DNA from: Geosiphon pyriformis uo1
Taxonomy: Eukaryota; Fungi; Glomeromycota
Assembly: GCA_016748015.1 (NCBI GenBank)
Contig: JAAOMT010000690.1
Span: forward strand, 1-64,000
Direction: 5' to 3'
Length of the DNA stretch: 64,000 bases
The position numbers and the translations under genes are program-made. Of this stretch, positions 780 through 53,028 are shown piece by piece (position 1 is the first letter of the stretch; each line of letters opens with the position of its first letter). Below the pieces are notes generated by a model. The model was not told where the DNA came from. It worked only from the letters and a program-made list of their open reading frames with translations, and did no database searches.

Positions 780-1215
780 TCATATTAACTGGTATGTCTA
801 TTCTACCCATTGATCTGAATCCCTGTATCTCTCTAGTAGTAATCCTTAATTCTTTCCTGTTTCCCACTAACACTAATTGAGCTATTTTTACCAGAGGTAG
901 GAATATTGCTTGTGATATCTTTTCATTTGGCTCTATGATATAGGCCTTTTCAGAGTCATTTTGTAGCATAGCAATAATATTTCCTATATACCTTGCGTCA
1001 ATTATTCCTCCTCTGATGTTGATTCCTTTTTTTGCTAGGCTACTTCTAGATGCTAATTGAACCATAGTTGTTGCTAAAATTTCCAGAGCTATTTTGAGAT
1101 CAATACATGTGCGCAAATTTGGTTCCAATTTGATGGCTTCTTTTTCCAGATATCTTAGATCAAACCCTACATCAGTATTATGTGCGTGTTTTGGCATGAT
1201 ATCTTCATTATTGTC
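780..1215 (-). pseudogene. Trimeric-type dUTPase domain inside pol of element A
   Basis: All five dUTPase motifs recognisable: DVGFDL, SRSS, GGIIDARYIGNI, KISQ, REIQGFRSMG. Confidence 0.9.
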
Positions 1216-2399
1216 ACTATACTATTTGAGTTCTTGCTCCTTAGATAAATCAGGAAGCGCAATATATATTTTGGGGTTTGAATTGGAGTCTGAATCACTG
1301 ATATTTTTGTTGCCATTTTGAGTGAAACTGAAACCATTATTTTCATCATCTTCATTATCAAAGTTTGAATTGGGATTGAAAATTGATTCTGATTCTGTTG
1401 CACAGTTGCTGATTGGTTTTTTTTCCTCTGGGATCATGTAAATCATGCATGGTGGTGGATTGTAAATAAAGTCACACTCATTACAATATTGAAAATCACA
1501 TGGAATCAAACAGTGGTCACATAGTTGAGTGTTGATTTCTTCCAAGTGTTGCTTCTGTTCTTTTCTTGTAAGTGCTAACTCTTGATAATGTTTGTGGAAT
1601 TGTTCTGGATCTAAGAGATTTATGACTGGTTCTGGGTCCCAGTCAAGTTCTATAGATTCAGATGGGTTATTTTTAATTGTTTTTATCTTTTTTGGTGTTG
1701 CTCCTTTGATTTTGGCAAGTGTCATTTGCCAGATTTTGTTATCATCATGTGGACATCTGTTCAGATGTTTAATGGCTCATTTCCAGGCAGTGTCTATGGA
1801 TGTTCTTTTTCTCATCCAGTTACTTATAAGAATCGTGTATTGACACAATTCATCGCATGTTCCTCTTTGTCCAGGAATGTTGTTCTACATTCCTTTATCC
1901 AGAAGAGTTTCTCTACAAGCCAAGCATAATTTATTGTTCCATTTCCCAATCCGTTTTGGTCTTTCAAAGCATTCAATAATGCATGGGTAGCAGTAGAATT
2001 TTGTTGCCAAAGTGTACTCCTTATCATTACCACAACAAGTGCCCATTGATGACAATTTCTTGCTGCAATTGATGCATACAAGTTTTGGGCGGCAATAAGT
2101 GGATTGGTGTGGTGTAGTGTAGGAATTATAAGTGGGGTTGCTGTTAGTTGTTGGTTTTTTTTTTCCCTTTTTTTTTTTTTTTTTGTCTTCTTTCCATTTC
2201 CAATTTATTTGTTCTTTCTGGTCATTGTCAGTTTCCCAGGCTTAATTGGCTTTCCAGGTAAGTTCTTTGCTCTGCTTTTCTTTGCTGTTGTTGTCTCACG
2301 AAGGTACTGACAGCAGCTTGTTGTGTTTAGTGTCAGCCCAAAAAACTTGGTAGACTTCTCAGATAAGTTTCTTTTCCTCTTTCTTAAATTTGATAAGTG

Positions 2400-5156: not shown

Positions 5157-6021
5157 TGTTACAAATAATTATTTGGGATCTCAAATCAAATAACAAATCC
5201 ATAACTTGGTGCTCAATATTTTGACAATGCTGGTGATACTGGTATGTTGGTTGTATCTGAAGGTTTTAGAGCTGAGTCTTTTGTATAATAGACAGAGATT
5301 CAATGACAATGTAGTTGATTAGTGAGTTGTGTTCCCAATTTCTGTCTTCAGCTTGGTGGCTGGTTTATTCTGGCAGTTGTGTTCTTCTGGTAAGCTATCC
5401 ATTAATATATATATAATTTTACCCTTATTTCTGGGTCTTTTATCAGACTATCCATGACATCAATTACTCAGTGCTTTAATCCTTAATCAGTTAGTATATG
5501 ACAGTAAAAATCAAAGAAGGAAAAAGTAAAAAAAAATAAAGAAATGAGCCAAAGCAATCTACATATTAGTATCTCATTAATAGCTATAATCAAGAGCTAT
5601 TGTTCTAGCATAGTTAGGTATCAATTACTATCAACATAAAGTATTGATAGTGGAGAGTGTATTTAGATAGTGAATAATTTATTTATTTAATATTTGTGGA
5701 TGGAAGATTTCTAACTAAAGGATTCTTATCTTTCTACTTCTAATGCTACCACTATATATACATAATTGATGTTCTACAAGATCACTCATATTCTCAAGTG
5801 ATGTGTTATGATTTCTTGAACAATGCTTATATTGCTGAGTGATGTGCTCTAATTTTCTAACATCACTCCACATTGCTAAGCAATGTGCTGTGTTTTCTGA
5901 CATTGCTCTACATTGCTGAGCAATGTGTTGTGATTTCTATCATTGCTCTATATTGCTAAGCAATATGCTCACATGTTACATACTATTCTCCTTATATCTG
6001 TTTTTCTTTTTATGAATAATA
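5157..6021 (-). repeat. 5' LTR of element A (~865 bp)
   Basis: Ends ...TGTAACA two nt before the PBS; homologous to LTR copies at 11388-11926, 11927-12818 and 16425-17239; TATA-like ATGTATATATAG near 5750-5763. Confidence 0.88.
5786..5970. repeat. About five tandem 40-41 bp units in LTR U3, each with a palindromic core
   Basis: Cores at 5829, 5870, 5910, 5950; CACATTGCT-A-AGCAATGTG (5869-5887) is a perfect inverted repeat; related array at ~11478-11640. Confidence 0.85.
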
Positions 6022-9000
6022 CTGAAAAGCCTACCAAGTCTTATGGGCTAACACCAATCACAATGAACTCTCACCAGTACTATTATGAAATGATAAAAAT
6101 AAAAAAAAAGAAGAAGACAAATTGCAAAAAACCACACACATGGAAAAAATTATTAGTGATTGGGAAAAATTCTACTCAAATAACACCAAAAAAGAACCAC
6201 TATATATCTCACTCAGGTGCAAAGATTGCAAGAAAAAACTGTCCTCTATAAGAGCCTGAATTGCATCTGATAAAGATTACTGGACTAGAACCCATTATTA
6301 CTATAAGTTGTGCCATAAAAAATGCTATGGCTACCCAAAAAGACAAAACAAGTAGGACAACAAATCATGTCTCACTTATAGGAAACAGTTACTTAATGAA
6401 GGAATATGGAATGATGTTCATGATTGAAAAGAAATGTATAATGTCTTGTGCCAATACACAATCCATATAAACAATTGGGTCAGCAGAAAAATATCTTTTA
6501 ATGTTATATAGAACCATGTTCTGTCATGTTTAGATAGTTATATACATAATGAAAACAAGATCTGGAAAATGGCAAATGTCAAAGTCAAAGATAGTTTACT
6601 CAGCAAAATATTAGAGATAAAGAATAACTTACTAGAACTAGTAAAGACTTTTTTTATCTCCAATTCTAATGCATTTATTAATATTAAAACAAATCCAGAA
6701 GAATTCCACAAACATTACCAAAATTTAGCACCAACCAGACAAGAACAAAAACAATATTTGGAACAACTAAACACCTAACTATATGACCATTGTTTAATAC
6801 CATGTGACTTTTAGTATTGTAATAATTGTGACCTCATTTACAATCCATTACCACATATAATTTACACAATTTCAGAAAAAGAATCAATTAGCAGCTGCAA
6901 AATAGAATTGATATTGCTACTCAATTGTGATTCAAACTCTGACAATAATGATAATAATAACAGTTCCAGCTCTGTTCAATATGGCAATCACAACAGTAAA
7001 AATTCAAACTTCAATTCAAATTCAGAACAATATATTATGCTTACTGATCTTTTAAAAGAGCAAGAACTCAAATGGTTCAGCAATAATGATGAAGATATTA
7101 TCCCAGAACATGTACATAATACTGATACAGAATTTAATCTTAGATATTCTGAAAAAAATATCATCAAATTGAAACCACATTTATGCATCTGTATTGATCT
7201 GAAAGTAATACTGAAAATTTTAATGACCACAATAGTTCAATTAACATCTAGAAATAGTTTAACAAAAAAAAATCAATATAAAAGAAGAAATAATTAATAC
7301 AGAATATGTAAGAAATATTATTACAATGCTACAAAATGACTCAAAAAAAACTTATATCATCGAACCAAATAAAAAGATAGTACAGACAATATTCCTACCT
7401 CTGGTTAAAATAGCTCAGCTAGTATTAGTGGGAAATAGAAAGGAATTAAGAATAATGACAAAAAGGATAAATAGATTCGAATCTATAAGTAGAATAAACA
7501 TATCAGTTTATATGGCAGAAGAAAAAATTATTGACAAGGGAGAAATTATCTCCACCTATCAATCAATTTTTATTCTATCATATGACCAGTATTTAGTAGT
7601 TATAAAAAGAAAAGTAAGAAACCAGCCCCAAATTTTTAAAGCAGAAACTACCATTTGTGAATTAGAAAAGATTGTTATCACCAATTTCTACATACTGGCT
7701 AAAAATAACAAGCACATTAAAATTTCTATCTACAACACAATTAAAGATACTATTAAAATACCAAGCAGAACTACCATTAGATATTTAAGCACTAAAGTTG
7801 AAAACCAATTACCAAATACCATTCCAGATTTTTCACAACTGTATAAATATATAAATATTATATCACAAACTATATATGAACGAAAAAAATGCTATTTGTT
7901 CCAACCAAAACAATTGGAACAAATAAACTTGGAAACTTTAGACTTACTTCAACAAATACAGCTTAAGATATTACTTAACAATTTTATTAATATTTTTGCA
8001 AGTAAAAATGAATTTGGTAAAACTGATATTATCCAACACCAAATCAAGACTAGAGATACAATGCCAATTAAACAAAAAGCATACAGAATACTACTAGCAA
8101 GTCATAAAATTATCTGACAGAAAATCAACTAGATATTAAACAATGGGTTAATTCAACTATCAATAAGTTCATGCTTATTACCAGTAGTATTAGTTCATAA
8201 AAAAAATAGAAAAATCTGCTTTTGTGTGAATTACAGAAAACTTAACAGTATTATTTGTAAAAACAGTTATCCAACTCCATAAATTTAGGAATTATTTGAT
8301 GCTTTTGGAAGAAAAAAATGGTTCTCAATATTAAATTTAAATAGTAGTTATTGACAAGTAGCCATGAAACCAGAAGATAAAAAAAAACTGCTTTTACAAC
8401 CAGAAAAAAAATTTTCAAGTTTGAGGTTATGCCATTTGGCTTAACCAATGCTCCAGCCACATTTTAACAGCTCATAGAAATTGTTTATATTAGACTACTA
8501 TGAAAATCAGTAGTTGTTTATTTAGATAACACCAATGTGTTTTCAAAAACATTTGATAATTATCTTCATTATCTATAGCAAGTGTTTAAGAGACTAAAAA
8601 GAGTCAGATTGAAACTAATACAAACAAGTATTTTTTGGCAAAACAGAACTGAAATTTTTGGAACATGTTGTTAGCAAAAACAGAATTAAGACAGATTTAA
8701 ACAAAATTAAGATCATCAAAAACTTTTCAGTATTAATGAATCTCACAGAATTAAGAGCATTCTTGGAATTTGCTAAATACTATCACTATTTTATTCAAAA
8801 CTTCTCCAAACTGGCTCAACCATTTCACTAGTTACAAGCCAAAAATGTAAAATATAAATGGACAGAAACCCAACAAAAAGCTTTTAATATTTTAAGAAGA
8901 AAGCTTATTCAAGTTCTAATACTGATCTATTCAGATCACAGCAAATCATTTATTATTACTACTAATGTATCTGGTTAAGCATTAGAAGCCATACTATCTT

Positions 9001-10732
9001 AAAAAAGACCAGATGGATGAGAACATCCAGTAGTATATGCCAGCCAAAGCTTGAGTTCAGCAAAAAAGAACTATAGAACACCAGCACTAGAACACTTAGT
9101 CATTTATTGGGCAGTTATTAAATAGAAAGAATATTTAAGCCAGAAGTTTGAAGTATATACTAATCACAAAGGATTGACATCAATTTAGAAACAAGAATTT
9201 AGAAATAACTACCATGTCAGATGGAAAAGAAAATGGAAATGTTGACAGTTTGTTACAAATAAAACAAATTTAAGAATATTTTAAACTCCAAAAATATAAC
9301 AAAAGATGAATATACAAAAATATCAACAATTCCAACACTATAATAATACCCAGCAGTTCAAAAAAAAATTATTTCAAAAGAAACAAAACAGCATAAAACA
9401 ACAATCAAAATATTTTATTATTTATTAAAATATATTATATCAGAAAAACAGAAAAAATTTAAATCAACTATTCAGAATAATCATAGAACCAGAAAAAAAA
9501 CAATATTATACAACATATAGTTAGATCCAACAGCAGGACATTTTTATAAAGAAACAATCATAAAAAGAACCAGAAAAAAATATTATTGGCCATCAATATA
9601 TCTAGATATTATCTAATATGTTCAAAATTGTGATGCTTGTCAAAGAAGAGAAAGAACAAAACTTAGTAAACCACTAAAACCAATTAAAGTGGAACAACTA
9701 TTTGATCAAATTGGAATTGACTTAGTTGGATCATTAACAATAACCAGCAGAGGCAATTGTTATATAGTAGTGACAATAAACTATCTCACAAAATGGCTAA
9801 AGGCAAAAGCAATTCAAAAAGCAGATGCAGAATCTGTAGTTAAATTCATTTATTAAGATTTGATTTGTCAACATAGATGTCCAAAAAAATTATTATTAGA
9901 TTAAAAAACTCACTTTATAAACAGAACATTAATAAAATTAAGCCAAAGATTTGAAATTAAAAACTATTATTATTATCATATTATCTACAAACAAATGGTC
10001 TAATTAAAAAATTCAACAGAATATTGTATAAAGCAATTACCAAAATCACTCAAGAAAACCAAGATAAATAGAATTTGTTTATACCATCAGTATTATTTGC
10101 TTATTAGACAATAAAGCAAGATATCATACAAACAACATTATTTGAATTTGTTTATAGTAGAACAGCAACATTATTAGTTGAGATAAAAGTTAATACATAT
10201 CTAACTGAACCAATAACAGAAGCCAACTTCCAAAAAACATTGCTAAGAAAAACATATAAATTAATAGAAATATTGGAAAACAAAAGACAAAAAGCAGCTG
10301 ATAATATTCAAAGATTACAAAAAAAACAGAAAAAATGACATGATAACCAATTAACAAATAAACTAGTTAAATTCAGAATTAGAAACAAAGTACTTTTATA
10401 TCATACCAAAGTGGAGTGAAAAATTTGACTTCAAATAGAACAGACCATTTTATATAGAAGAAATTCTAAGAAATAGAGCATACAAATTAAGATAAAATAA
10501 CAAAATTTTAGTCAAAGCAGCATATAAAAATTGATTAAAACCATATTACAATATAGTATCATTATTTATTATTAATATTCTACAACTAAAAACACAATAA
10601 ATACTAGTTCAATCAGATGAAATTCCATGAAATTTAGAACTAATTATAATTATTAATACAAATATGTCAAAGTAATTAACCAAAATAATATAAAAAAAAC
10701 ACAATATACATAACAAAAGCAACAACAAAAAA

Positions 10733-11373
10733 ATGGAAATCTCAGACCACATCTACTTAATAGCTTAATAATTATTTCAAGCTGTAAATCAATAACAATT
10801 AAATATGAAAATTGTTATCAACCACCAAACAATCTGCTATTAAAACACCAAAAAAAGAAAAAAAGCAAAAAATACATAATATTAGCAACTACTGAACTCA
10901 ACAAAACATTGGTCAGATAAAATAATAGAAAAAGTAAAAAATACTTTTAGAAAAATACTCATAATTATTCCAACAAAGAAGCTAACAAAAAAAGTTAAAA
11001 ATACTGAACAGAACAACTTCCAATACCATACTATTATTATTAGTTGCAACAAAAACTGAATATTTAAGAACTATATACTAATAAATTTAAAAGAATATTC
11101 TATCAAGAAATAATACAGCAAATTGAAGACTTTATTAGAAAAAAAACAAATTCATCACTTCATATTAAAACAATCTATTAGCTATACACCATATTTCAAA
11201 ATTATTCAGAAATATTACTACACCCAAAAATAGAAACAATAACCATTAACCAGTGAGGAAAAATGAACAACTCATAAATAAAAAACATAAGAACCAGAAT
11301 TGAACAAACAATATTAGAAAAAAAAGTAATAGAATTAATCCAAAATAAAGATTTTAATAAAGCTCAATATTAA
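10733..11373 (+). pseudogene. Extra ORF3 of element B (unknown function), degenerate
   Basis: MEISDHIYL...IY*LYTIFQNYSEILLHPKIETITINQ...DFNKAQY*; homologous by eye to 12832-13494 (-). Confidence 0.7.
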
Positions 11374-11384
11374 AAAGAAGGAGA
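11372..11384 (+). promoter_or_regulatory. Polypurine tract of element B
   Basis: AAAAAGAAGGAGA then TAA, then LTR start TATTAC. Confidence 0.85.
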
Positions 11385-11387
11385 TAA

Positions 11388-11926
11388 TATTACTTATAGA
11401 AAAGAGCACAAGAAAAATAATAAAAAAAACAGATGAAAAAAATAGACCAATAAGAAAATAGTTTTAAGCACATGAACATATTGCTGGTGAATTATGGCAT
11501 ATTGCTTAGCAATATAAGCAATATTAATGAATTATAACATATTGTTTAGCAATATAAGCAATGTCAATAAATTATGGCACATTGTTCAGCAATATAAATA
11601 ATCTAAACATTGCTTAAAAAATTATAGTATATTGCTCATGAATATGTAAGATTTTATAGAACATTAATTATGTATATATAGCAAGAATGTTAGAAGCAAA
11701 AAAAACAGAATTCATAACTAAAACACACAATTAGAATTCCTGGTTAAGAAATACAGTTAAAAACAGTTTAAAATTTACATTACATATTAATAAATTATCA
11801 ATTACCACTTGAATCCATGTTATTATCACTTGATTAAAGAATATTAAATCATTTCTATTCTATCAACACTTTATGTTGATAAAATTTAATACTTAATCAT
11901 ATTGAAACAATAGCTCTTGATCATGG
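11388..11926 (+). repeat. 3' LTR of element B, truncated by element C
   Basis: Follows the PPT; reverse-complement homologous to 5583-6021; stops exactly where the next LTR terminus (TGTTATA) begins. Confidence 0.82.
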
Positions 11927-12818
11927 TGTTATAGATAATTATTTGGGGTTTGGAAACAAATAACAAATCTATAACTTGGTGCTCAATTGATATAATGGGA
12001 TTGGTTTTTGAAAATTTTGGTTGAGTTTTTTATATAATGAACAGAGATTTAAGTATTGTTTTATCTGTAGTTTTCCAGAATTGCAATTCCATTAAATTTC
12101 TTTTTCAGTTTGGTGGTCAGCAATCCTCTGGTAAGTAATCCTTAAATCTAAGTGTCTACTCTTTTGCAGAGATTTTTTATCAAACAATCCTTGATGTTAA
12201 TAACTCAGTGCTTTAATTTTTTAATTAATTAGTAAATCCACAATAAAACAAAAGAAAAAAAAAGAAATAAAAGAAATAATAAAAATAATGAAAAAAGAAA
12301 TAAAAAGATAAGTCAAGACAAGAAAAAATTAATATCCTGTCAATAGTTGTGATTAAAAACTATTGGTTTAAGGTGGTTAAGTATTGGCAATTATCAATAT
12401 AAGTTTATTAATAGCACAAAGATAGATTATGATAATAACAAATATTTTATTAATATTTAATGTTTTCACTTTAAGTTATAGAATATTATCATATAAAAAG
12501 ATGAGTATAGGATTAAAACTAGAGATTCTAAAACTAAGAACTCTTATTCTAAGAATTCTTTTTTTTCTACTTTTAATACTACTGTTATATATACATAAAT
12601 TTTTCTATACAAAATTCCTTAAATTCCTTAATTCTCTTAGCCAAAAATCTTGGAATTCCTTAAAAAAAATCCTGCAATTCTGAAATCCTGCAATTTCTTA
12701 TACTAGAATTTTGTAATTCTGGAATCCTGAAAAAAATTCTGAAATTCTATTTTTACTGCATCTTATTCTAATTGGCTAATTTGTATTAATATATAATACT
12801 TATATTCTATAAGTAATA
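11927..12818 (-). repeat. 3' LTR of element C (~890 bp)
   Basis: Preceded on minus strand by PPT AAAAGAAGGAGA-TAA; termini TATTAC...TATAACA; homologous to the other LTRs. Confidence 0.88.
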
Positions 12819-12831
12819 TTATCTCCTTCTT

Positions 12832-13494
12832 TTAATATTGAGCTTCATCAAAATTTTCTATATCTTCTAACTTTTTTTTTTGATTAACTTCTGAACTTCT
12901 TTTTTGAGAATTATTTAAGCTATTTTGATCTGTAATTTTTCAAATTAGGTATTGGTCATTTTTTCGAATTGGTTGATGGTAATTATATCTATTGCTGGAT
13001 TAAGTAATATTGCTGTTCAATCTTGAAATTCTGCATATAGCTAATATATGGCTTGTGCTTGTGTAAACAAATTGTTTTTTTTTCACAAATTGTTTTAATT
13101 GTTATAGTATTGTTATGTTGAATAACTGTTTTGTTTTGTTAGTATATAAATTTTGAATATTTAGGTTTTATTCCAAATAATAATAACAAAAGTTTTTTAG
13201 AAATTGTTGTTTCTACCAACTCCAAGTTTTTTTTGTCAATTCTTAATATAGTACTGTTGTTTTTGGTATTTCTATTGACAACTTTACTTTTGCTATTATC
13301 TTGTTTATGGTGTTTTCTGGTTTTTCATATGTCTTTTATTGGGGTTTTTTTTTATTATCTCTGTACTGAATGGTTTGTTAATTAATTGTAATTTCCATGT
13401 TTTGTTGTTGGATCAGTTAAAATAATTGCTGTATAAGTAAGTAAATGTCATTGGTAATTTCTATCTTTATTATTGCTTTTGTTATATCTACCAT
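12832..13494 (-). pseudogene. Extra ORF3 of element C (unknown function), degenerate
   Basis: MVDITKAIIKIEITNDIYL...IY*LYAEFQD*TAILLNPAIDIITINQFEKM...NFDEAQY*; stop overlaps the PPT. Confidence 0.7.
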
Positions 13495-16424
13495 ATTTTT
13501 ATATACTATTCTGTTTAATTAAGTTGTTGTGTTTGTATTAATGACTATAATTGGTTCCAGATTTCATAAGATCTTATCTGGTTGGATTAGTATCTGTTGT
13601 ACTCTTAGTTGTGGAATATTACTGGTGAATAATAATGCTGTATTGTAATATGGCTTCAGTCAATCTTTATGTGCTGCTTTAACTAAGATTTTGTTATCTT
13701 ATCTTAGTTTATATGTTTTATTTCTTAGAATTTCTTCTATGTAAAATGGTCTGTTCTATTTGAAGTCAAATTTTTCACTCCATTGTTTTTCCATTTTGGT
13801 ATGATATAAGAGTATTTTGTTTCTAATTCTGAATTTAACTGGTTTATTTGTTAATTAGTTATTATGTCGTTTTTTCTGTTTTTTTTGTAATCTTTAAATA
13901 TTATCAGCTGCTTTTTGTTTTTTGTTTTCCAATGTTTCTATTAGTTTATATGTTTTTCTTAACAATGTTTTTTGGAAGTTGGCTTTTGTTATTGGTTCAG
14001 TTGGATATGTATTAACTTTTATCTCAACTAATAATGTTGCTGTTCTACTATAAACAAGTTTAAATGATGTTGCTTGTGTGGTATCTTGCTTTATTGTCTG
14101 ATAAGCAAATAATATTAATGATATAAACAAATTCTATTTGTCTTAGTTTGCTTGAGTGATTTTGGTAATTGCTTCACACAATGTTCTGTTGAATTTTTTA
14201 ATTAAATTATTTGTTTGTGGATAATATAATGATAATAATAGTTTCTTGATTTCAAATTTTTGGCTTAATTTTATTAATGTTCTGTTTACAAAGTGAGTTT
14301 TTTAATCTGATAATAATTTTTTTGGACATTTATGTTGACAAATTAATCTTGATAAATAAATTTAACTACAGATTCTGCATCTGCTTTTTGAATTGCTTTT
14401 GTCTCTAGCCATTTTGTGAGATAGTTTATTGCTACTGCTATATAACAATTGCCATTGCTGGTTATTGTTAATAGTCCAACTAAGTCAATTCCAATTTGAT
14501 CAAATAGTTGTTCCACTTTAATTGGTTTTAGTGGTTTATTGAGTTTTGTTCCTTCTTTTCTCTGATAAGCATCACAATTTTAAACATATTAGATAATATC
14601 TAGATATATTGATGGCCAATAATATTTTTTTCTGGTTTTTTCTATGATTTTTTCTTTATAAAAATGTTCTGCTGTTGGATCTAAATACATGTTGTATAAT
14701 ATTGTTTTTTTTTTTGGTTTTATAATTATTCTGAATAATTGATTTATATAATATATTTTAGTAAATAATAAAATATTTTGATTGTTGTTTTATGCTGTTT
14801 TGTTTCTTTTGAGATAATTTTTTCTTAAACTGTTAAGTATTAATATAATGTTAGAATTGTAAATATTTTTGTGTGTTTATTTTTTGTTATATTTTTGGGT
14901 TAAAATGTTCTTAGATTTGTTTTATTTATAATAAACTATTAGCATTTTTGTTTTTTGTTTTTTTTTAATATGTATAGTATAATTAAATAGTAATAATACT
15001 AATTTCTATCTTGCATAGCAGTTATCTGTGAATTCTTGTTTCTGGATTGGTGTCAATCTTTTGTAATTAGTATACACATCAAACTTTTGATTCAAGTATT
15101 TTTTTTATTTGATAACAGCCCAATAGATAGCCAAATATTTTAGTGCTAAAGTTTCATAATTTTTTTCTGCTGAACTTAAGCTTTGGTTGGTATATATTAC
15201 TGAGTATTTGTTTTTATCTGGTCTTTTTTGAGACAATACAGCTTTCAATACTTGACTTGATGCATTGGTGGTAATAATAAATGGTTTACTATGATTCAAA
15301 TAGATCAATACTGGAGCTTAAATAAGCTTTCTTCTTAAAATATCAAAAGTTTTTTGTTGGGTTTTCATCTATTTGTATTTCACATTTTTGGCTTGGAGCT
15401 AATAAAGTGGTTGAGCCAGTTTAGAGAAGTTTTGGATAAAATGGCAATAGTATTCAGCAAATTTCAAAAATGCTCTTAATTTTGTGAGATTTATTGGTAT
15501 TGGAAAGTTCTTAACAATTTTAATCTTGTTTGGATCTGTTTTAATGTCATTTTTATTTATGATATGTCCCAAAAATTTCAGTTCTGTTTTGCCAAAAAAA
15601 CATTTGTTTGCATTTAGTATTAACTTAGCTTTCCTTAATCTTTCAAACACTTGTTAAAGATAATAGAAATAATTATTAGATATTCTGGAAAACACATTAA
15701 TATTATCTATATAGACTATTACTGATTTCTATAGTAATTCAGTATACATAATTTTTATAAGCTATTGATAAGTTACTGGCATATTCATTAAGCCAAATGG
15801 CATAATATTGAATTCAAAATTCTTTTCTTGTATAGTAAATGCTGTTTTCTCTTTGTTAGCTGAATTTATGGCTACTTATTAGTAACCACTATCTATATCT
15901 AATATAAAGAACCATTTTTTTTCTTCAAAAGCATTGAATAATTTTTGGATTCATGGAGTTGGATAACTATTTTCACAAGTAATGCTGTTAAGTTTTTTAT
16001 AATCTACACAAAAGTGGATCTTTTCATTTTTCTTCTAAACTAGTATTATTGGTAATAATCATGAACTTATTGATAATTAAATTAATCTGTTGTTTAATAT
16101 TCTGTTGATTTTTTGTTAGATAATTTTATGGCTAACTGTTAGTATTCAGTATGCTTATTGTTTGATTGGCATAGTATTTCCAGTTTTAATTTGATGTTAG
16201 ATTATATTAGTTCTGTTAAATTTATTTTCACTCACAAAAATATTGGTAAAATTATTGAGTAATATTTTGAGCTTTATGTGTTAAAATGGGTCTAAGTTTC
16301 CCAAATTTATTTGGTCTAATTGTTCTGGTTAGAGCAAATAACATTCTTCACATTTGTATATGGTTTGTCCTGTAATATCTACATATCTACACAGTTGTGG
16401 AAAATCTGAAATAGTACTTGGTAG

Positions 16425-17239
16425 TATTACAGGTGATTATTTGGGATCTCAAATCAAATAACAAATCTGTAACTTGGTGCTTAATAGCTAATATGATTGA
16501 TATTATTTGAAGGTTTTGGTTGAATCTTTTGTATAATGAACAGAGATTCAAGTGTTGTTTTATTTGTCACTTCTCAGAATCACAATTCTGTCAAATTTTT
16601 TTTTCAGCATAATAGTCAGTAATCTTTCTGGTAAGCTATCCTCAATTTTTGAGTGTTCTACTCTTATTCTTGTGTCTTTTATCAGTTACTTTGATGTCAA
16701 TAATTCTATGTATTTAATCTTTAATCAATTAGTAAATAATAATAAAACAAAAAAAAATAAAAAAAATAAAAAAAATAAAGAAATAAACCAAGACAAAAAA
16801 GAGTTAATATTCTGTTAATAGTTATGATCAAGAGCTATTGGTCTAGTGTAGTTAAGTATCAATTACTATTAACATGAAATGTTAATAGCAAACAGTAGAT
16901 TATGATTAAAATAAATATTTTTATTAATATAAAATGTTAAAACTTGGTGGTTCTAAACTAAAAATTCTAGCTAAAAAATTCTGTTCTTTCTGTTTTTAAT
17001 ACTACTGCTATATATACATAAATTTTGTTATATGAGATTCTTTGAATTTCTGGAATCCTGTAATTTCTCAAGAAGAATCCTGCAATTTTGGAATCCTGCA
17101 ATTCTTTATACTAAAATTCTGTAATTCTGGAATCTTGTGATTTCTTTGAGAGGAATTCTGGAATTTCACTTTTATTGTATTTTATTCTAATTGGCTAATT
17201 TATGTACTAATATATAATTCCTATATTCTATGAGTAACA
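16425..17239 (-). repeat. Solo LTR (815 bp) of the same family, no target-site duplication
   Basis: Plus strand TATTACA...GAGTAACA; full-length homology to 11927-12818; no PBS or PPT adjacent; flanks GGTAG and ATATA differ. Confidence 0.85.
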
Positions 17240-17272
17240 ATATAACTGGCTATTTGGCCAATTAAAACTATA

Positions 17273-18800
17273 CTATACAGTTATATTAACTATAATATCT
17301 TTAACTGTATTAGCAAAAAATAAATAATCTGTTCTTGATATGAAACTAATAACTTAATCCTCTTCAATTTCCAACAACTAAGTAATACTATCTACAATTC
17401 TGGCTAGAAGACTATGAATGACATCAAACAAAAAATTATTTTTATCTAACAAATCTTTATAATTTATATTAGCCCAAAGTTTTAAATTAGATACTTATAT
17501 ATACTTTCTATAGCCAATAACCAAGCTTTAAACAAACTCAATTAACTTGGTTGTGATAAGCTTAATATTACTAAAAAAAGTTTTGATTTCAACCAACCAG
17601 TTTTTGAACATTAATTTTTTGCACAAGATTATATATAAACTTACATTAAAGACACATAAATTTAAAAATTACAGAATTACAAATGAAACTAGAATAGTAC
17701 TGATTAAAGATATCCAAAGAAAAAGTGCTTATTTAGCAAATTTTAATAGACAAACAGATTTAGACTGCAAATGAAATTGTGATCTAAAAATCTCATCTTT
17801 TTGTAACATATACACAACATGTTTGAATAACTGCAATTGTACAAACACTTTTTTATTATTATAAACAATTTTCTATAAAGTGTTTTTATTAAATATGTAT
17901 GTAAAACCAATATAATAAGCTTCTAATTAATATTTTTAATATGTGAAAAGTTTATAGCATTAAAACCAAGTCCAACTTTTCATTAAAAATATTTAATAGT
18001 ATTATATACTGTCTTAACAAAATGTTAAGCATTGCCAAATACCACCTTATTACCAGTTAGCAAAAAATTTTTCTTGATATTTACTGAAAAAACAAGTCTT
18101 AAATATACAATTTGATTAGCCAGCTTATTAGCAAAATCATTGTTTACAACTCCAGAATAGTTTTTTTTTATCTTAGTACAGTTTACAAAAATGTCTTTAT
18201 TTTTGACCAAGTTGTTAATATAGTGCTATTTAATTCAGCACTTATTATAAAAATCAAATATTTTTAACTTTAATTCAACTTAATATGTATCTATAGAAGT
18301 CTAACTATTAAAAAAAATCATAACATTGAAGAAAACTAAAACACATTTAAGAACCAATACTATAGCTTGTATTTTAATTAAAATTAATAAAAGCAAATCA
18401 TGAATATCCACTTTTGTATTCAAATTCAAATCAGAAAAGTAGATAACAGTATCATCAATTGTACTAATTGCATTAAAAAAACCAAAATTATTAATAGAAT
18501 CATTAGTATAAATTGAGATTATAAGCAATAACACATTTTTTAAATAAGAACAAACTATATTAAAGTTATTTGTATTAAATACACATATTTTGAAATTGGG
18601 TCTAAAAGCAGATAAAAAGTTACAAGCCAGACTACTATCTTTAATAAATTCCGAAATTTGTATAAACTAAAAAAAAATTGGGTTTTTATAATCTAATCAT
18701 TTCTAATAATAAAAATTCTTTTAAGAAAAGCAATTTTTATTACTATTTAAAAATTGGTTTTTAAAAATCATACCAAAATACAAAATTTATTAAATAAATA
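17273..18800 (-). mobile_element. Relic non-LTR retrotransposon (LINE) ORF2 3' part: RNase H, C-terminal Cys/His zinc motif, stop at 17273-17275
   Basis: IYTNDS (YTDGS), IKIQAIVLVL (ELQAI), KIKKNYSGVVNNDFANKLA (KVKGHSG..GN..AD.LA), LCICYKKMRFLDHNFIC; deviations are mostly G>A/C>T. Confidence 0.8.
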
Positions 18801-50208: not shown

Positions 50209-51316
50209 NNNNNNNNNNNNNNNNNNNNNNNNNNNNNNNNNNNNNNNNNNNNNNNNNNNNNNNNNNNNNNNNNNNNNNNNNNNNNNNNNNNNNNNNNNNN
50301 NNNNNNNNNNNNNNNNNNNNNNNNNNNNNNNNNNNNNNNNNNNNNNNNNNNNNNNNNNNNNNNNNNNNNNNNNNNNNNNNNNNNNNNNNNNNNNNNNNNN
50401 NNNNNNNNNNNNNNNNNNNNNNNNNNNNNNNNNNNNNNNNNNNNNNNNNNNNNNNNNNNNNNNNNNNNNNNNNNNNNNNNNNNNNNNNNNNNNNNNNNNN
50501 NNNNNNNNNNNNNNNNNNNNNNNNNNNNNNNNNNNNNNNNNNNNNNNNNNNNNTTTTTTTTTTTTTTTCTTTTTTTTTTACCACTCTCTTCTGCTCGATA
50601 CGTCCATTCTTTTTTCCGAGTTTAACTTTTTGCTCTCCTAGTAAATCTTATATTAAAAAAGCGAATTCGCACGCTTTTATATTCTATAGAAAAAGAAATC
50701 AAAAAAAAATTATCCGAACTTGTGCTTACTTTACTATCCTTATTATAAATTACTTCAAATTTTATTTATACATATATAATTTTTTATAATAATATAATCT
50801 AAATTTTTTTTTATCTTTGTTATATAATAATCTGTTTCTTCCTTCACTTACCAAAGTCAACTCAACTCGACTCAACTCAACTTACTATTCATTGCTCAGA
50901 ATATTGGAAGTTTATCAAGTCAACAACCCCGCTACAACTTCTACTAAAAAACTACTACTAGAAATAACATCAACTTTGTGTCACGAATACAAATTTTTTT
51001 CTGCAAAAACAACAACTATAAAATCCCTAGGCGAGCCACCGTTTTTTTCAAAAAACAACCAAAACAACACAAAAACGTCCACGCATATATACAGCAACAA
51101 AAAAAATTAACTTGGTTTTTTTCTTTCTTCTGCCAAACAAATAATAATTCGACATTTAAAGAATATAAAATAAAAGGTACCAAACGTCAAATATAAACGA
51201 GCCGGAACACACAACAATAAAACAACATACACAACTCTAACGAAATTCACCATACATAAACTTTTTTGAATACACTAAACTTTTATTCTTTTACAACTCA
51301 ACGAAAAAAAAAAAGT

Positions 51317-53028
<1,712 letters not shown>

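What the first reader, a model, noticed from the sequence alone, without database searches (positions are those of the whole stretch)
10733..11373. Conserved unknown ORF3 in the env position of a fungal Gypsy family
Seen: both B and C have a ~210-220 codon frame between integrase and the PPT whose stop overlaps the PPT (FNKAQY* / FDEAQY*). Their DNA is divergent, but after reverting C>T/G>A stops the proteins align with conservative changes: EISDHIYLIAQQLFQ / EITNDIYLLIQQLFQ; WKYWTEQLPIPYYYY / WSWWKQQFLKNFCYYY; IYQLYTIF..ILLHPKIETITINQ / IYQLYAEF..ILLNPAIDIITINQ. I see no signal peptide or TM segment, so it is not env-like. Inference: a selected accessory protein (anti-silencing, targeting or trans-activation). 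With the dUTPase and Cys-rich insert, this is the best candidate for an undescribed system here.
Basis: partly seen in the sequence, partly recalled or inferred. Interest (0 to 1): 0.8.

Follow-up and report, generated by a model that had tools for sequence, protein, structure and literature searches.

The report
Third gene of fungal Gypsy retrotransposons
This is the decayed copy of a real, conserved third gene that a family of fungal jumping genes carries behind its integrase; it encodes a predicted soluble protein unlike any described family, likely has its own promoter, and likely works in the nucleus to switch the element on, a layout known from complex retroviruses but untested here.

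Summary
The ORF is real. Relatives form four Geosiphon types and two metagenome types, about 20-48% identical between types. In 4 of 4 loci with DNA the ORF lies behind a Gypsy integrase. In-frame pN/pS is 0.54 (B/C) and 0.64 (two metagenome copies), against nulls of 0.87 and 0.98. The protein has no membrane segment and no significant Pfam, PDB or fold match; ParB/DUF1016-type helix-turn-helix profiles did not match. New here: a TATA box precedes the first 3' ORF in 4 of 4 loci; a PY-type nuclear import motif occurs in 5 of 6 types; B and C share 92-95% integrase DNA but only 60-70% ORF3 DNA; one subfamily carries a second extra ORF. The shared 'AQY*' end is mostly a PPT DNA motif. Best guess (0.4): a self-promoted nuclear transactivator or anti-silencer, like foamy-virus Tas. 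Function is untested. Extra 3' ORFs are a known kind; this family appears undescribed. The scan noted third genes in other fungal genomes, none matching by sequence.

The parts
10733..11373 (+). ORF3 of element B (B-type), pseudogene: 13 stops, one frameshift near 10975-10993
   Evidence: 52-66% identical to intact P0007
10689..10696 (+). TATA-like box 44 nt upstream of the ORF3 ATG, candidate internal promoter
   Evidence: equivalent box in C, L001, L002
9306..10675 (+). Integrase of B, decayed; starts at its own ATG after the RNase H stop; its last frame is the frame in which ORF3 starts
   Evidence: (tblastn with L001 integrase)
7810..9270 (+). RT and RNase H of B, decayed (approximate limits)
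6000..7460 (+). Cys-rich insert and dUTPase remnant of B (approximate limits); B is cut on its 5' side by the LTR of element A
   Evidence: weak Pfam dUTPase E=0.002, below cut-off
11374..11387 (+). Polypurine tract of B, directly after the ORF3 stop
11388..11926 (+). 3' LTR of B, truncated; U3 holds 40-bp tandem repeats (11488-11597) with one intact ATTGC-N3-GCAAT dyad; LTR TATA at 11670
12832..13494 (-). ORF3 of element C (C-type), pseudogene: stops and two frameshifts; the start homologous to B's ATG is ATA at 13464, with an in-frame ATG at 13494
13496..13503 (-). TATA-like box 39 nt upstream of the C start homologous to B's ATG
13520..16423 (-). RT, RNase H and integrase of C, decayed (approximate limits); integrase DNA 92-95% identical to B
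11927..12832 (-). PPT (12832-12819) and 3' LTR (12818-11927) of C; U3 not alignable to B's U3, TATA core and parts of R/U5 alignable
5157..5980 (-). 5' LTR of element A, U3 with three GCAAT dyads like B's; PBS follows. A's 3' end lies outside the window

Best explanation
ORF3 is a conserved, separate gene of this fungal Ty3/Gypsy lineage that is likely transcribed from its own TATA promoter behind integrase, and its predicted soluble helical product likely enters the nucleus and likely activates the element's own transcription against host silencing. SHOWN: the gene is real, selected, separate from integrase in the near-intact element L001, always behind integrase (4 of 4 loci), lacks membrane segments, and is exchanged between elements as a 3' module with the PPT and U3. 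INFERRED: (1) a short mRNA from the internal promoter makes ORF3 even when the LTR is weak; (2) a basic, predicted-disordered linker with an R/K/H-x2-5-PY motif is a Kap104/transportin import signal; (3) the helical core (about residues 80-205) binds element DNA or chromatin (U3 and/or the internal promoter) and turns on the LTR, as foamy-virus Tas does, or keeps it demethylated, as VANC does. Step 3 is the weakest.
For: Selection: pN/pS 0.54 vs null 0.87 (B/C; 1 of 500) and 0.64 vs 0.98 (L001/L002; 0 of 500), shifted frames not below their nulls. Intact copies P0007, P0059, P0066, P0039, P0067. Six types about 20-48% apart. TATAAA[AT]A lies 44, 39, 126 and 111 nt before the first 3' ORF in B, C, L001, L002; it is the only match in L001 (3.7 kb) and in L002 (1.3 kb); 4-15% of 140-nt windows hold one; the L001 and L002 boxes align as an identical 10-mer. 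The L001 spacer has three upstream ATGs, no Rfam match and no unusual RNA fold (z=0.66), which argues against IRES or leaky scanning. PY motif at the same place in 5 of 6 types, in the segment with pLDDT<50 in both models; 1 match in 846 residues of other element proteins (consensus from PMC2408616 abstract). Host pressure: CpG observed/expected 0.03-0.14 in A, B, C vs 0.67 in the host forkhead gene; 69 of 73 integrase differences are transitions. Mosaic: RT/RNase H 71-84%, integrase 92-95%, ORF3 60-70%. Weak recurring DNA-binding rows for the P0059 model: Spo0J Z 4.0 (rmsd 5.0, 92 aligned), KorB Z 3.8 (5.1, 95), ParB Z 3.3 (3.1, 59). U3 dyads in A: 8 overlapping rows at 3 sites, 0 of 200 shuffles.
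Against: No direct evidence of expression, localisation or binding. The structural rows are far below significance and tied with unrelated proteins; the P0007 model did not give them. Profile-profile tests against self-built HTH_ParB, DUF1016_N and DUF3102 alignments scored 0.11-0.37% probability, inside shuffled controls. ORF3 type does not track U3 type strictly: gene model P0058 joins a C-type ORF3 end to an A-type (GCAAT) U3, whereas window copy C has a different U3 (the model may be spliced). U3 repeat words are nearly absent from the spacer, unlike Tas, which binds both promoters. pI ranges 5.2-9.3. The PY motif is absent from the C type, and dyads were not enriched in C or L001 U3. The TATA motif was chosen after seeing it, in AT-rich DNA, and B/C and L001/L002 are two related pairs. 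The noncoding LTR control also gave 9 of 500 in one of three frames, so the selection null is somewhat lenient.
Confidence: 0.4

Rival explanations
1. Rev/CERV-like nuclear RNA factor: ORF3 binds the full-length element RNA and gets it exported or packaged.
For: Same nuclear-import and own-promoter hints. CERV of C. elegans Cer1 shows an LTR retrotransposon can encode a novel export protein (PMC10309623 abstract). The Kap104 cargoes studied in PMC2408616 are Hrp1 and Nab2 (section titles), RNA-binding proteins by my own knowledge.
Against: No splice pattern shown that would call for an export factor; no arginine-rich RNA-binding stretch conserved across types; CERV comes from a spliced RNA.
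Confidence: 0.17
2. TAV-like translation transactivator: ORF3 lets ribosomes restart at the stand-alone integrase ORF, and may also damp RNA silencing.
For: Integrase is a separate ORF behind the RNase H stop in L001 and B. In CaMV a 106-bp spacer between RT and TAV holds a TATA box for TAV's own mRNA, and TAV drives reinitiation after long ORFs (PMC5902531 passages): the same layout.
Against: No Pfam or viral-fold likeness to TAV or anything else; the stop and ATG are only about 25-35 nt apart, so restart may need no helper; the PY motif points to the nucleus; whether split integrase and ORF3 always co-occur could not be tested.
Confidence: 0.15
3. Cytoplasmic counter-defence or particle protein (RNAi suppressor, Gag partner) in an arms race with the host.
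For: Fast divergence and module swapping; small RNAs and mCG target transposons in Rhizophagus (10.1101/2021.03.30.436303 passages); a second accessory ORF in one subfamily.
Against: No likeness to any known suppressor; nuclear import motif in 5 of 6 types.
Confidence: 0.12
4. Integrase partner or read-through extension that steers integration, standing in for a chromodomain.
For: In B and C the ORF3 start is in the same frame as the integrase end, 57 nt or less away; gene model P0014 joins the two, lacking about 12 codons that include the stop; Pfam found no chromodomain in the L001 integrase tail.
Against: In L001 ORF3 is out of frame and 316 nt away, and in L002 another ORF intervenes; integrases 92-95% identical in DNA go with ORF3 types about 40% identical in protein.
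Confidence: 0.08
5. Env-like protein, or a non-coding stretch that merely looks like an ORF.
For: It sits in the env position; the C-terminal peptide is partly imposed by the PPT DNA.
Against: No hydrophobic segment in 7 of 7 proteins; five intact copies and codon-level selection; 2 models at pLDDT 78 with matching secondary structure from queries 25% identical (the two alignments share most rows).
Confidence: 0.04

Closest known systems
[quoted passage not shown]
   Same: [quoted passage not shown]
   Different: Grande-type ORFs are antisense and the plant sense ones are env-like; this one is sense, soluble, fungal, and shows no sequence match.
'Additional ORF with unknown function' and dUTPase in fungal Gypsy elements (PMC2864245, passages and figure legend; Additional file 1 not readable)
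   Same: Fungal Gypsy elements with an extra ORF; dUTPase between protease and RT (PosPlaTy3-5).
   Different: No Glomeromycotina family or protein description seen; those are mostly chromoviruses; whether their extra ORFs are related could not be checked.
Foamy virus Tas/Bet cassette (PMC3185757, passages)
   Same: Accessory ORFs at the 3' end, one running into the 3' LTR, driven by an internal promoter; a two-ORF cassette in the L002 subfamily; works-like model for the best explanation.
   Different: No env, no sequence or fold match, no shared motif found between spacer and U3; activity untested.
CaMV TAV/P6 with the 19S promoter (PMC5902531, passages)
   Same: 3'-terminal gene behind the pol region with a TATA box in a short spacer, in an element that needs restart of translation.
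   Different: No sequence match; predicted nuclear signal; reinitiation untested.
VANC anti-silencing proteins of VANDAL transposons (PMC5735166, abstract)
   Same: Element-encoded, fast-diverging accessory protein; tandem repeats in noncoding element DNA; host methylation.
   Different: DNA transposons of plants; no homology seen; protein type and repeat type do not co-vary strictly here.
Bdelloid LTR ORF3s (env, GDSL esterase, DEDDy exonuclease; PMC5408684 abstract) and CERV of Cer1 (PMC10309623 abstract)
   Same: Non-env ORF3s exchanged as modules, in lineages with dUTPase; novel accessory protein of an LTR retrotransposon.
   Different: No enzyme domain detected here; CERV comes from a spliced RNA.

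Membership tests
Ty3/Gypsy LTR retrotransposon (host element) | RT - RNase H - integrase order, LTRs, PBS and PPT | tested here: met
   Pfam RVT_1, RT_RNaseH, Integrase_H2C2, rve in this order in L001; same order in B and C; LTR ends, PBS and PPT
Additional 3' sense ORF of LTR retrotransposons | [quoted passage not shown] | tested here: met
   4 of 4 loci with DNA (L002 ends before the PPT); six types; pN/pS below null
Env / env-like ORF3 | Signal peptide and transmembrane anchor | tested here: not met
   Max 19-residue Kyte-Doolittle mean 0.44-1.33 in 7 of 7 proteins, no N-terminal peak; hydropathy only, no dedicated predictor
Chromovirus chromodomain | Domain fused to the integrase C-terminus | tested here: not met
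   Separate, out-of-frame ORF in L001; no Pfam chromo match among 29 alignment members
Enzymatic ORF3s (GDSL, DEDDy, 2OG-Fe dioxygenase) | Profile match to the enzyme family | tested here: not met
   No Pfam or NCBIfam hit above cut-off
ParB/KorB/DUF1016_N-type helix-turn-helix domain | Shared fold or profile | tested here: inconclusive
   VIA Z 3.3-4.0, not above unrelated rows; hhalign 0.11-0.37%, within shuffles, while DUF1016_N vs ParB scored 68%
Foamy-virus Tas-like transactivator (works-like) | Internal promoter driving the accessory ORF | tested here: inconclusive
   TATA box in 4 of 4 loci; no RNA data
Foamy-virus Tas-like transactivator (works-like) | Sequence-specific binding to U3 and internal promoter with transcriptional activation | not testable with these tools
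   No shared repeat word between U3 and spacer found; needs experiment
Caulimovirus TAV (works-like) | Polycistronic element that needs reinitiation after a long ORF | tested here: met
   Stop after RNase H and new ATG for integrase in L001 and B
Caulimovirus TAV (works-like) | Reinitiation activity through eIF3/TOR | not testable with these tools
   No sequence match in Pfam; needs a dicistronic reporter
PY-NLS cargo | R/H/K-x2-5-PY in a basic, disordered stretch | tested here: inconclusive
   Present in B, D, E and both metagenome types, absent in C type; weak consensus (PMC2408616)

The most novel reading that the evidence does not exclude
A fungal LTR-retrotransposon lineage has independently evolved complex-retrovirus regulation: a separately made integrase plus a swappable 3' cassette of one or two accessory genes on their own internal promoter, whose new-fold nuclear protein switches on or de-silences its own LTR in a sequence-specific way. 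That would be a Tas/VANC-like master switch behind the LTR expansion of Geosiphon.
Probability: 0.25. Interest if true: 0.82.

Novelty: new variant of a known kind. Interest (0 to 1): 0.55.

Why it matters
LTR elements cover 41.2% of the G. pyriformis genome (PMC11952901, passage) although the copies seen here are almost stripped of CpG; how such elements get expressed under methylation is open. A conserved, unannotated accessory protein with intact natural copies (P0007, P0059, P0039) and a candidate promoter makes that directly testable. It also explains dozens of 'hypothetical' Geosiphon gene models as transposon fragments, and adds a protein family with a confident model and no matching fold in the libraries searched.

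Tried and rejected
No whole genome is held, so no copy census or subfamily-wide dN/dS; intact natural copies were used instead of a consensus. Pfam, PHROGs, NCBIfam: nothing above cut-off or shared by many members. PDB by sequence: 2 rows at E 5 and none with the profile. Foldseek PDB and BFVD: no E<=0.001. VIA: best Z 5.3, 4.7 and 4.3; only whole-chain models were searched, so the N-terminal helix-hairpin is barely tested. ESM Atlas: both queries gave as first hit (0.94) an unnamed 190-aa cluster of 98 members, mostly Mucoromycota, with low recognition scores; a lead only. My recalled likeness to DUF1016_N, ParB and DUF3102 was not supported; the ParB set held one wrong-strand row among 27, and the DUF3102 set had only 4 rows and failed to match ParB or DUF1016_N, so that test is weak. 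The ORF3 profile rang in 0 of 301 genomes of one bacterial phylum. Viral contigs gave no relative of ORF3 or of the integrase; phages none, plasmids only E=2 rows. No RNA holder was listed. Homodimer prediction gave no verdict. No Rfam match in L001/L002. ORF-X is not detectably related to ORF3 (0.12%). Integrase B/C was useless as a positive control for selection because its differences are post-insertion decay; RT served instead (3 of 500 and 0 of 500). The metagenome scan stopped at 31 of 64 parts. Literature: searches found no description of this ORF; the library lacks most subscription papers, the Geosiphon genome paper and Repbase were not seen, and PMC2864245 Additional file 1 (.doc) was not readable.

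Full report
Setting. The first 17 kb of the window is a stack of decayed LTR retrotransposons: A (minus strand, gag to RT, cut by the window edge; 5' LTR 5157-5980), B (plus strand, about 6000-11926) and C (minus strand, 11927-16423), with a further C-type LTR at 16424-17238. No whole genome is held. Every named homologue of the ORF is a Geosiphon pyriformis gene model, so the host is that fungus or a close relative (inference).

The observation. B has an ATG at 10733 and a stop at 11371-11373 that runs into the PPT; C has the homologous stretch at 13464/13494-12832. Neither copy is a single frame: B has one frameshift and 13 stops, C two frameshifts. Twelve of B's 13 stops lie opposite Q, W or R in the intact homologue P0007, and most of C's lie opposite Q, W or R in C-type models. 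This fits transition-driven decay: 69 of 73 differences in the shared integrase are transitions, and CpG observed/expected is 0.03-0.14 in the elements against 0.67 in the host forkhead gene.

The family. A search with B's second half (X at stops) gave one hit among 22 candidates, an intact 211-aa protein, P0007. P0007 found 54 representatives at E<=0.001 among 1.84 billion proteins. Sources are known for 23 of these 54: 21 Geosiphon, 2 unnamed metagenome proteins; 31 were not looked up. A tree of 20 chosen rows gives four Geosiphon types (B, C, D, and E as a single long row) and two metagenome types, about 20-48% identical between types. Many Geosiphon models are fragments or are fused by the gene caller to integrase, LTR or gag sequence, which itself places them in these elements. 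The metagenome scan (31 of 64 parts, 593 candidates) gave 2 loci. L001 is nearly intact: RT-RNase H, a stop, a separate integrase ORF with one internal stop, a 316-nt spacer, then an intact 230-codon ORF3 that reads through the PPT into U3. L002 has the integrase end, a 290-nt spacer, a second extra ORF of 128 aa (ORF-X) and the first 149 codons of ORF3's frame. ORF-X has two further 90-93% identical relatives; one lies on a 19,119-nt contig, the same length as the contig of P0039, so the two-gene cassette is likely conserved. Thus ORF3 follows a Gypsy integrase in 4 of 4 loci with DNA.

Selection. On frame-blind DNA alignments, in-frame pN/pS is 0.54 for B/C (177 codons; null 0.87; 1 of 500, and 0 of 1000) and 0.64 for L001/L002 (134 codons; null 0.98; 0 of 500); shifted frames gave 165-453 of 500. 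RT, the positive control, gave 3 and 0 of 500. The noncoding LTR control gave 9, 329 and 300 of 500 in its three frames, so the null is slightly lenient, but both ORF3 pairs exceed it. Jukes-Cantor-corrected dN/dS on protein-guided pairs is 0.37 and 0.46. Constraint is real but looser than on RT.

The C-terminus is partly a DNA signal. The bases just before the PPT are shared by B, C and L001, read as AQY-stop in Geosiphon and in another frame as ELNLEE in L001.

Modular exchange. Along B and C, DNA identity is 71-84% over RT/RNase H, 92-95% over integrase, and 60-70% over ORF3; their U3 regions do not align while the LTR TATA core and parts of R/U5 do. ORF3, PPT and U3 were therefore inherited as a unit apart from integrase (inference: template switching). 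Near-identical integrases with 43%-identical ORF3s argue against a tight integrase partner. However, ORF3 type does not map one-to-one on U3 type: P0014 joins B-type ORF3 to GCAAT-type U3 as in B, but P0058 joins a C-type end to the same U3 class.

Expression. TATAAA[AT]A lies 44, 39, 126 and 111 nt upstream of the first 3' ORF in B, C, L001 and L002; 4-15% of 140-nt windows hold one, and it is the only match in each metagenome locus; the two metagenome boxes align exactly. The L001 spacer has three upstream ATGs, no Rfam hit and no unusual structure. An internal promoter is the simplest reading, with the caveats that the motif was chosen after the fact, the DNA is AT-rich, and the four loci are two related pairs. 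In B and C the ORF3 start is in frame with the integrase end, so read-through or a short splice is not excluded there; in L001 it is out of frame. No RNA run was listed.

The protein. No hydrophobic segment in 7 of 7 proteins; pI 5.2-9.3. AlphaFold2 models of P0007 and P0059 (25% identical; largely shared alignments) both reach pLDDT 78, pTM 0.64, with the same layout: helix, beta hairpin, disordered basic linker (about 40-54), then a helical core and a long last helix. Best-kept positions include Y102, K143, N145, A152, L156-Y157, F160, L167-L168 and N178 of P0059; no catalytic set is evident. An R/K/H-x2-5-PY motif, the PY-NLS core (PMC2408616 abstract), lies in the linker of B, D, E and both metagenome types, not of the C type; it is decayed in window copy B. 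Family, sequence and fold searches found nothing significant. The P0059 model gave weak rows for Spo0J, KorB and ParB DNA-binding domains (Z 3.3-4.0); profile tests against alignments built from fetched loci did not support that link.

Mechanism. I commit to a self-promoted nuclear activator or anti-silencer (0.4): promoter hint, import motif, strong host cytosine decay, fast divergence and linkage to U3 all point there, and the layout matches foamy viruses, where an internal promoter drives Tas and a second ORF reaches into the 3' LTR (PMC3185757 passages). Rivals: Rev/CERV-like RNA export (0.17), TAV-like reinitiation for the separate integrase ORF, whose CaMV layout is equally close (0.15), cytoplasmic counter-defence (0.12), integrase partner (0.08), env or non-gene (0.04); the remainder is unassigned. 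Only reality, position, selection, lack of membrane segments and modularity are shown; promoter, localisation and activity are inferred.

Novelty. Extra ORFs between pol and the 3' LTR are known in plants (PMC7264820 passages), rotifers (PMC5408684 abstract) and, as ORFs of unknown function, in fungi, where dUTPase-bearing elements are also known (PMC2864245 passages). PMC3248453, PMC11952901 and 10.1101/2021.03.30.436303, read as keyword passages only, showed no mention of such an ORF. Eight searches found no description of this family, within the limits of the library. Earlier scan notes report third genes in other fungal genomes and the split integrase in this genome; look-ups by sequence found no match. 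Verdict: a new variant of a known kind, an undescribed protein family with a testable regulatory model; interest 0.55.

Noticed in passing
L002:425-811 (+): Second accessory ORF (128-137 aa, ORF-X) between the spacer TATA and ORF3; three members 90-93% identical, no Pfam or NCBIfam match, not related to ORF3.
   Followed up: partly
window 9270-9306 (+); L001:772-800: Integrase is a separate ORF: stop after RNase H, new ATG about 25-35 nt later.
   Followed up: partly
window 5819-5969 and 11488-11597: U3 of A and B LTRs is built of 40-bp tandem repeats carrying ATTGC-N3-GCAAT dyads, typical of sites for a dimeric DNA-binding protein; C-type U3 has different 9-bp repeats.
   Followed up: partly
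window 9400-10500 vs 13700-14800: Elements B and C are mosaics: integrase 92-95% identical between flanks of 60-84%.
   Followed up: partly
window 16424-17238 (-): C-type LTR abutting RT of element C with no PBS or gag between, only 70% identical to C's 3' LTR; probably a separate insertion or a large internal deletion.
   Followed up: no
window about 800-2250 (-) and 6000-7460 (+): Cys-rich insert and dUTPase between protease and RT in A and B; the Cys-rich part was not characterised.
   Followed up: no
window 51260-53028 (+): Host forkhead-type transcription factor gene (label from the look of the translation, no profile run), apparently with an intron and a Q/N-rich N-terminus; CpG not depleted.
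   Followed up: no
window about 17250-18700 (-): Decayed AT-rich coding-like remnant next to the LTR stack, possibly another retroelement fragment.
   Followed up: no
window 19000-62000: Very dense microsatellites (AAT, AAC, ACT, GAT runs) and assembly gaps of N.
   Followed up: no
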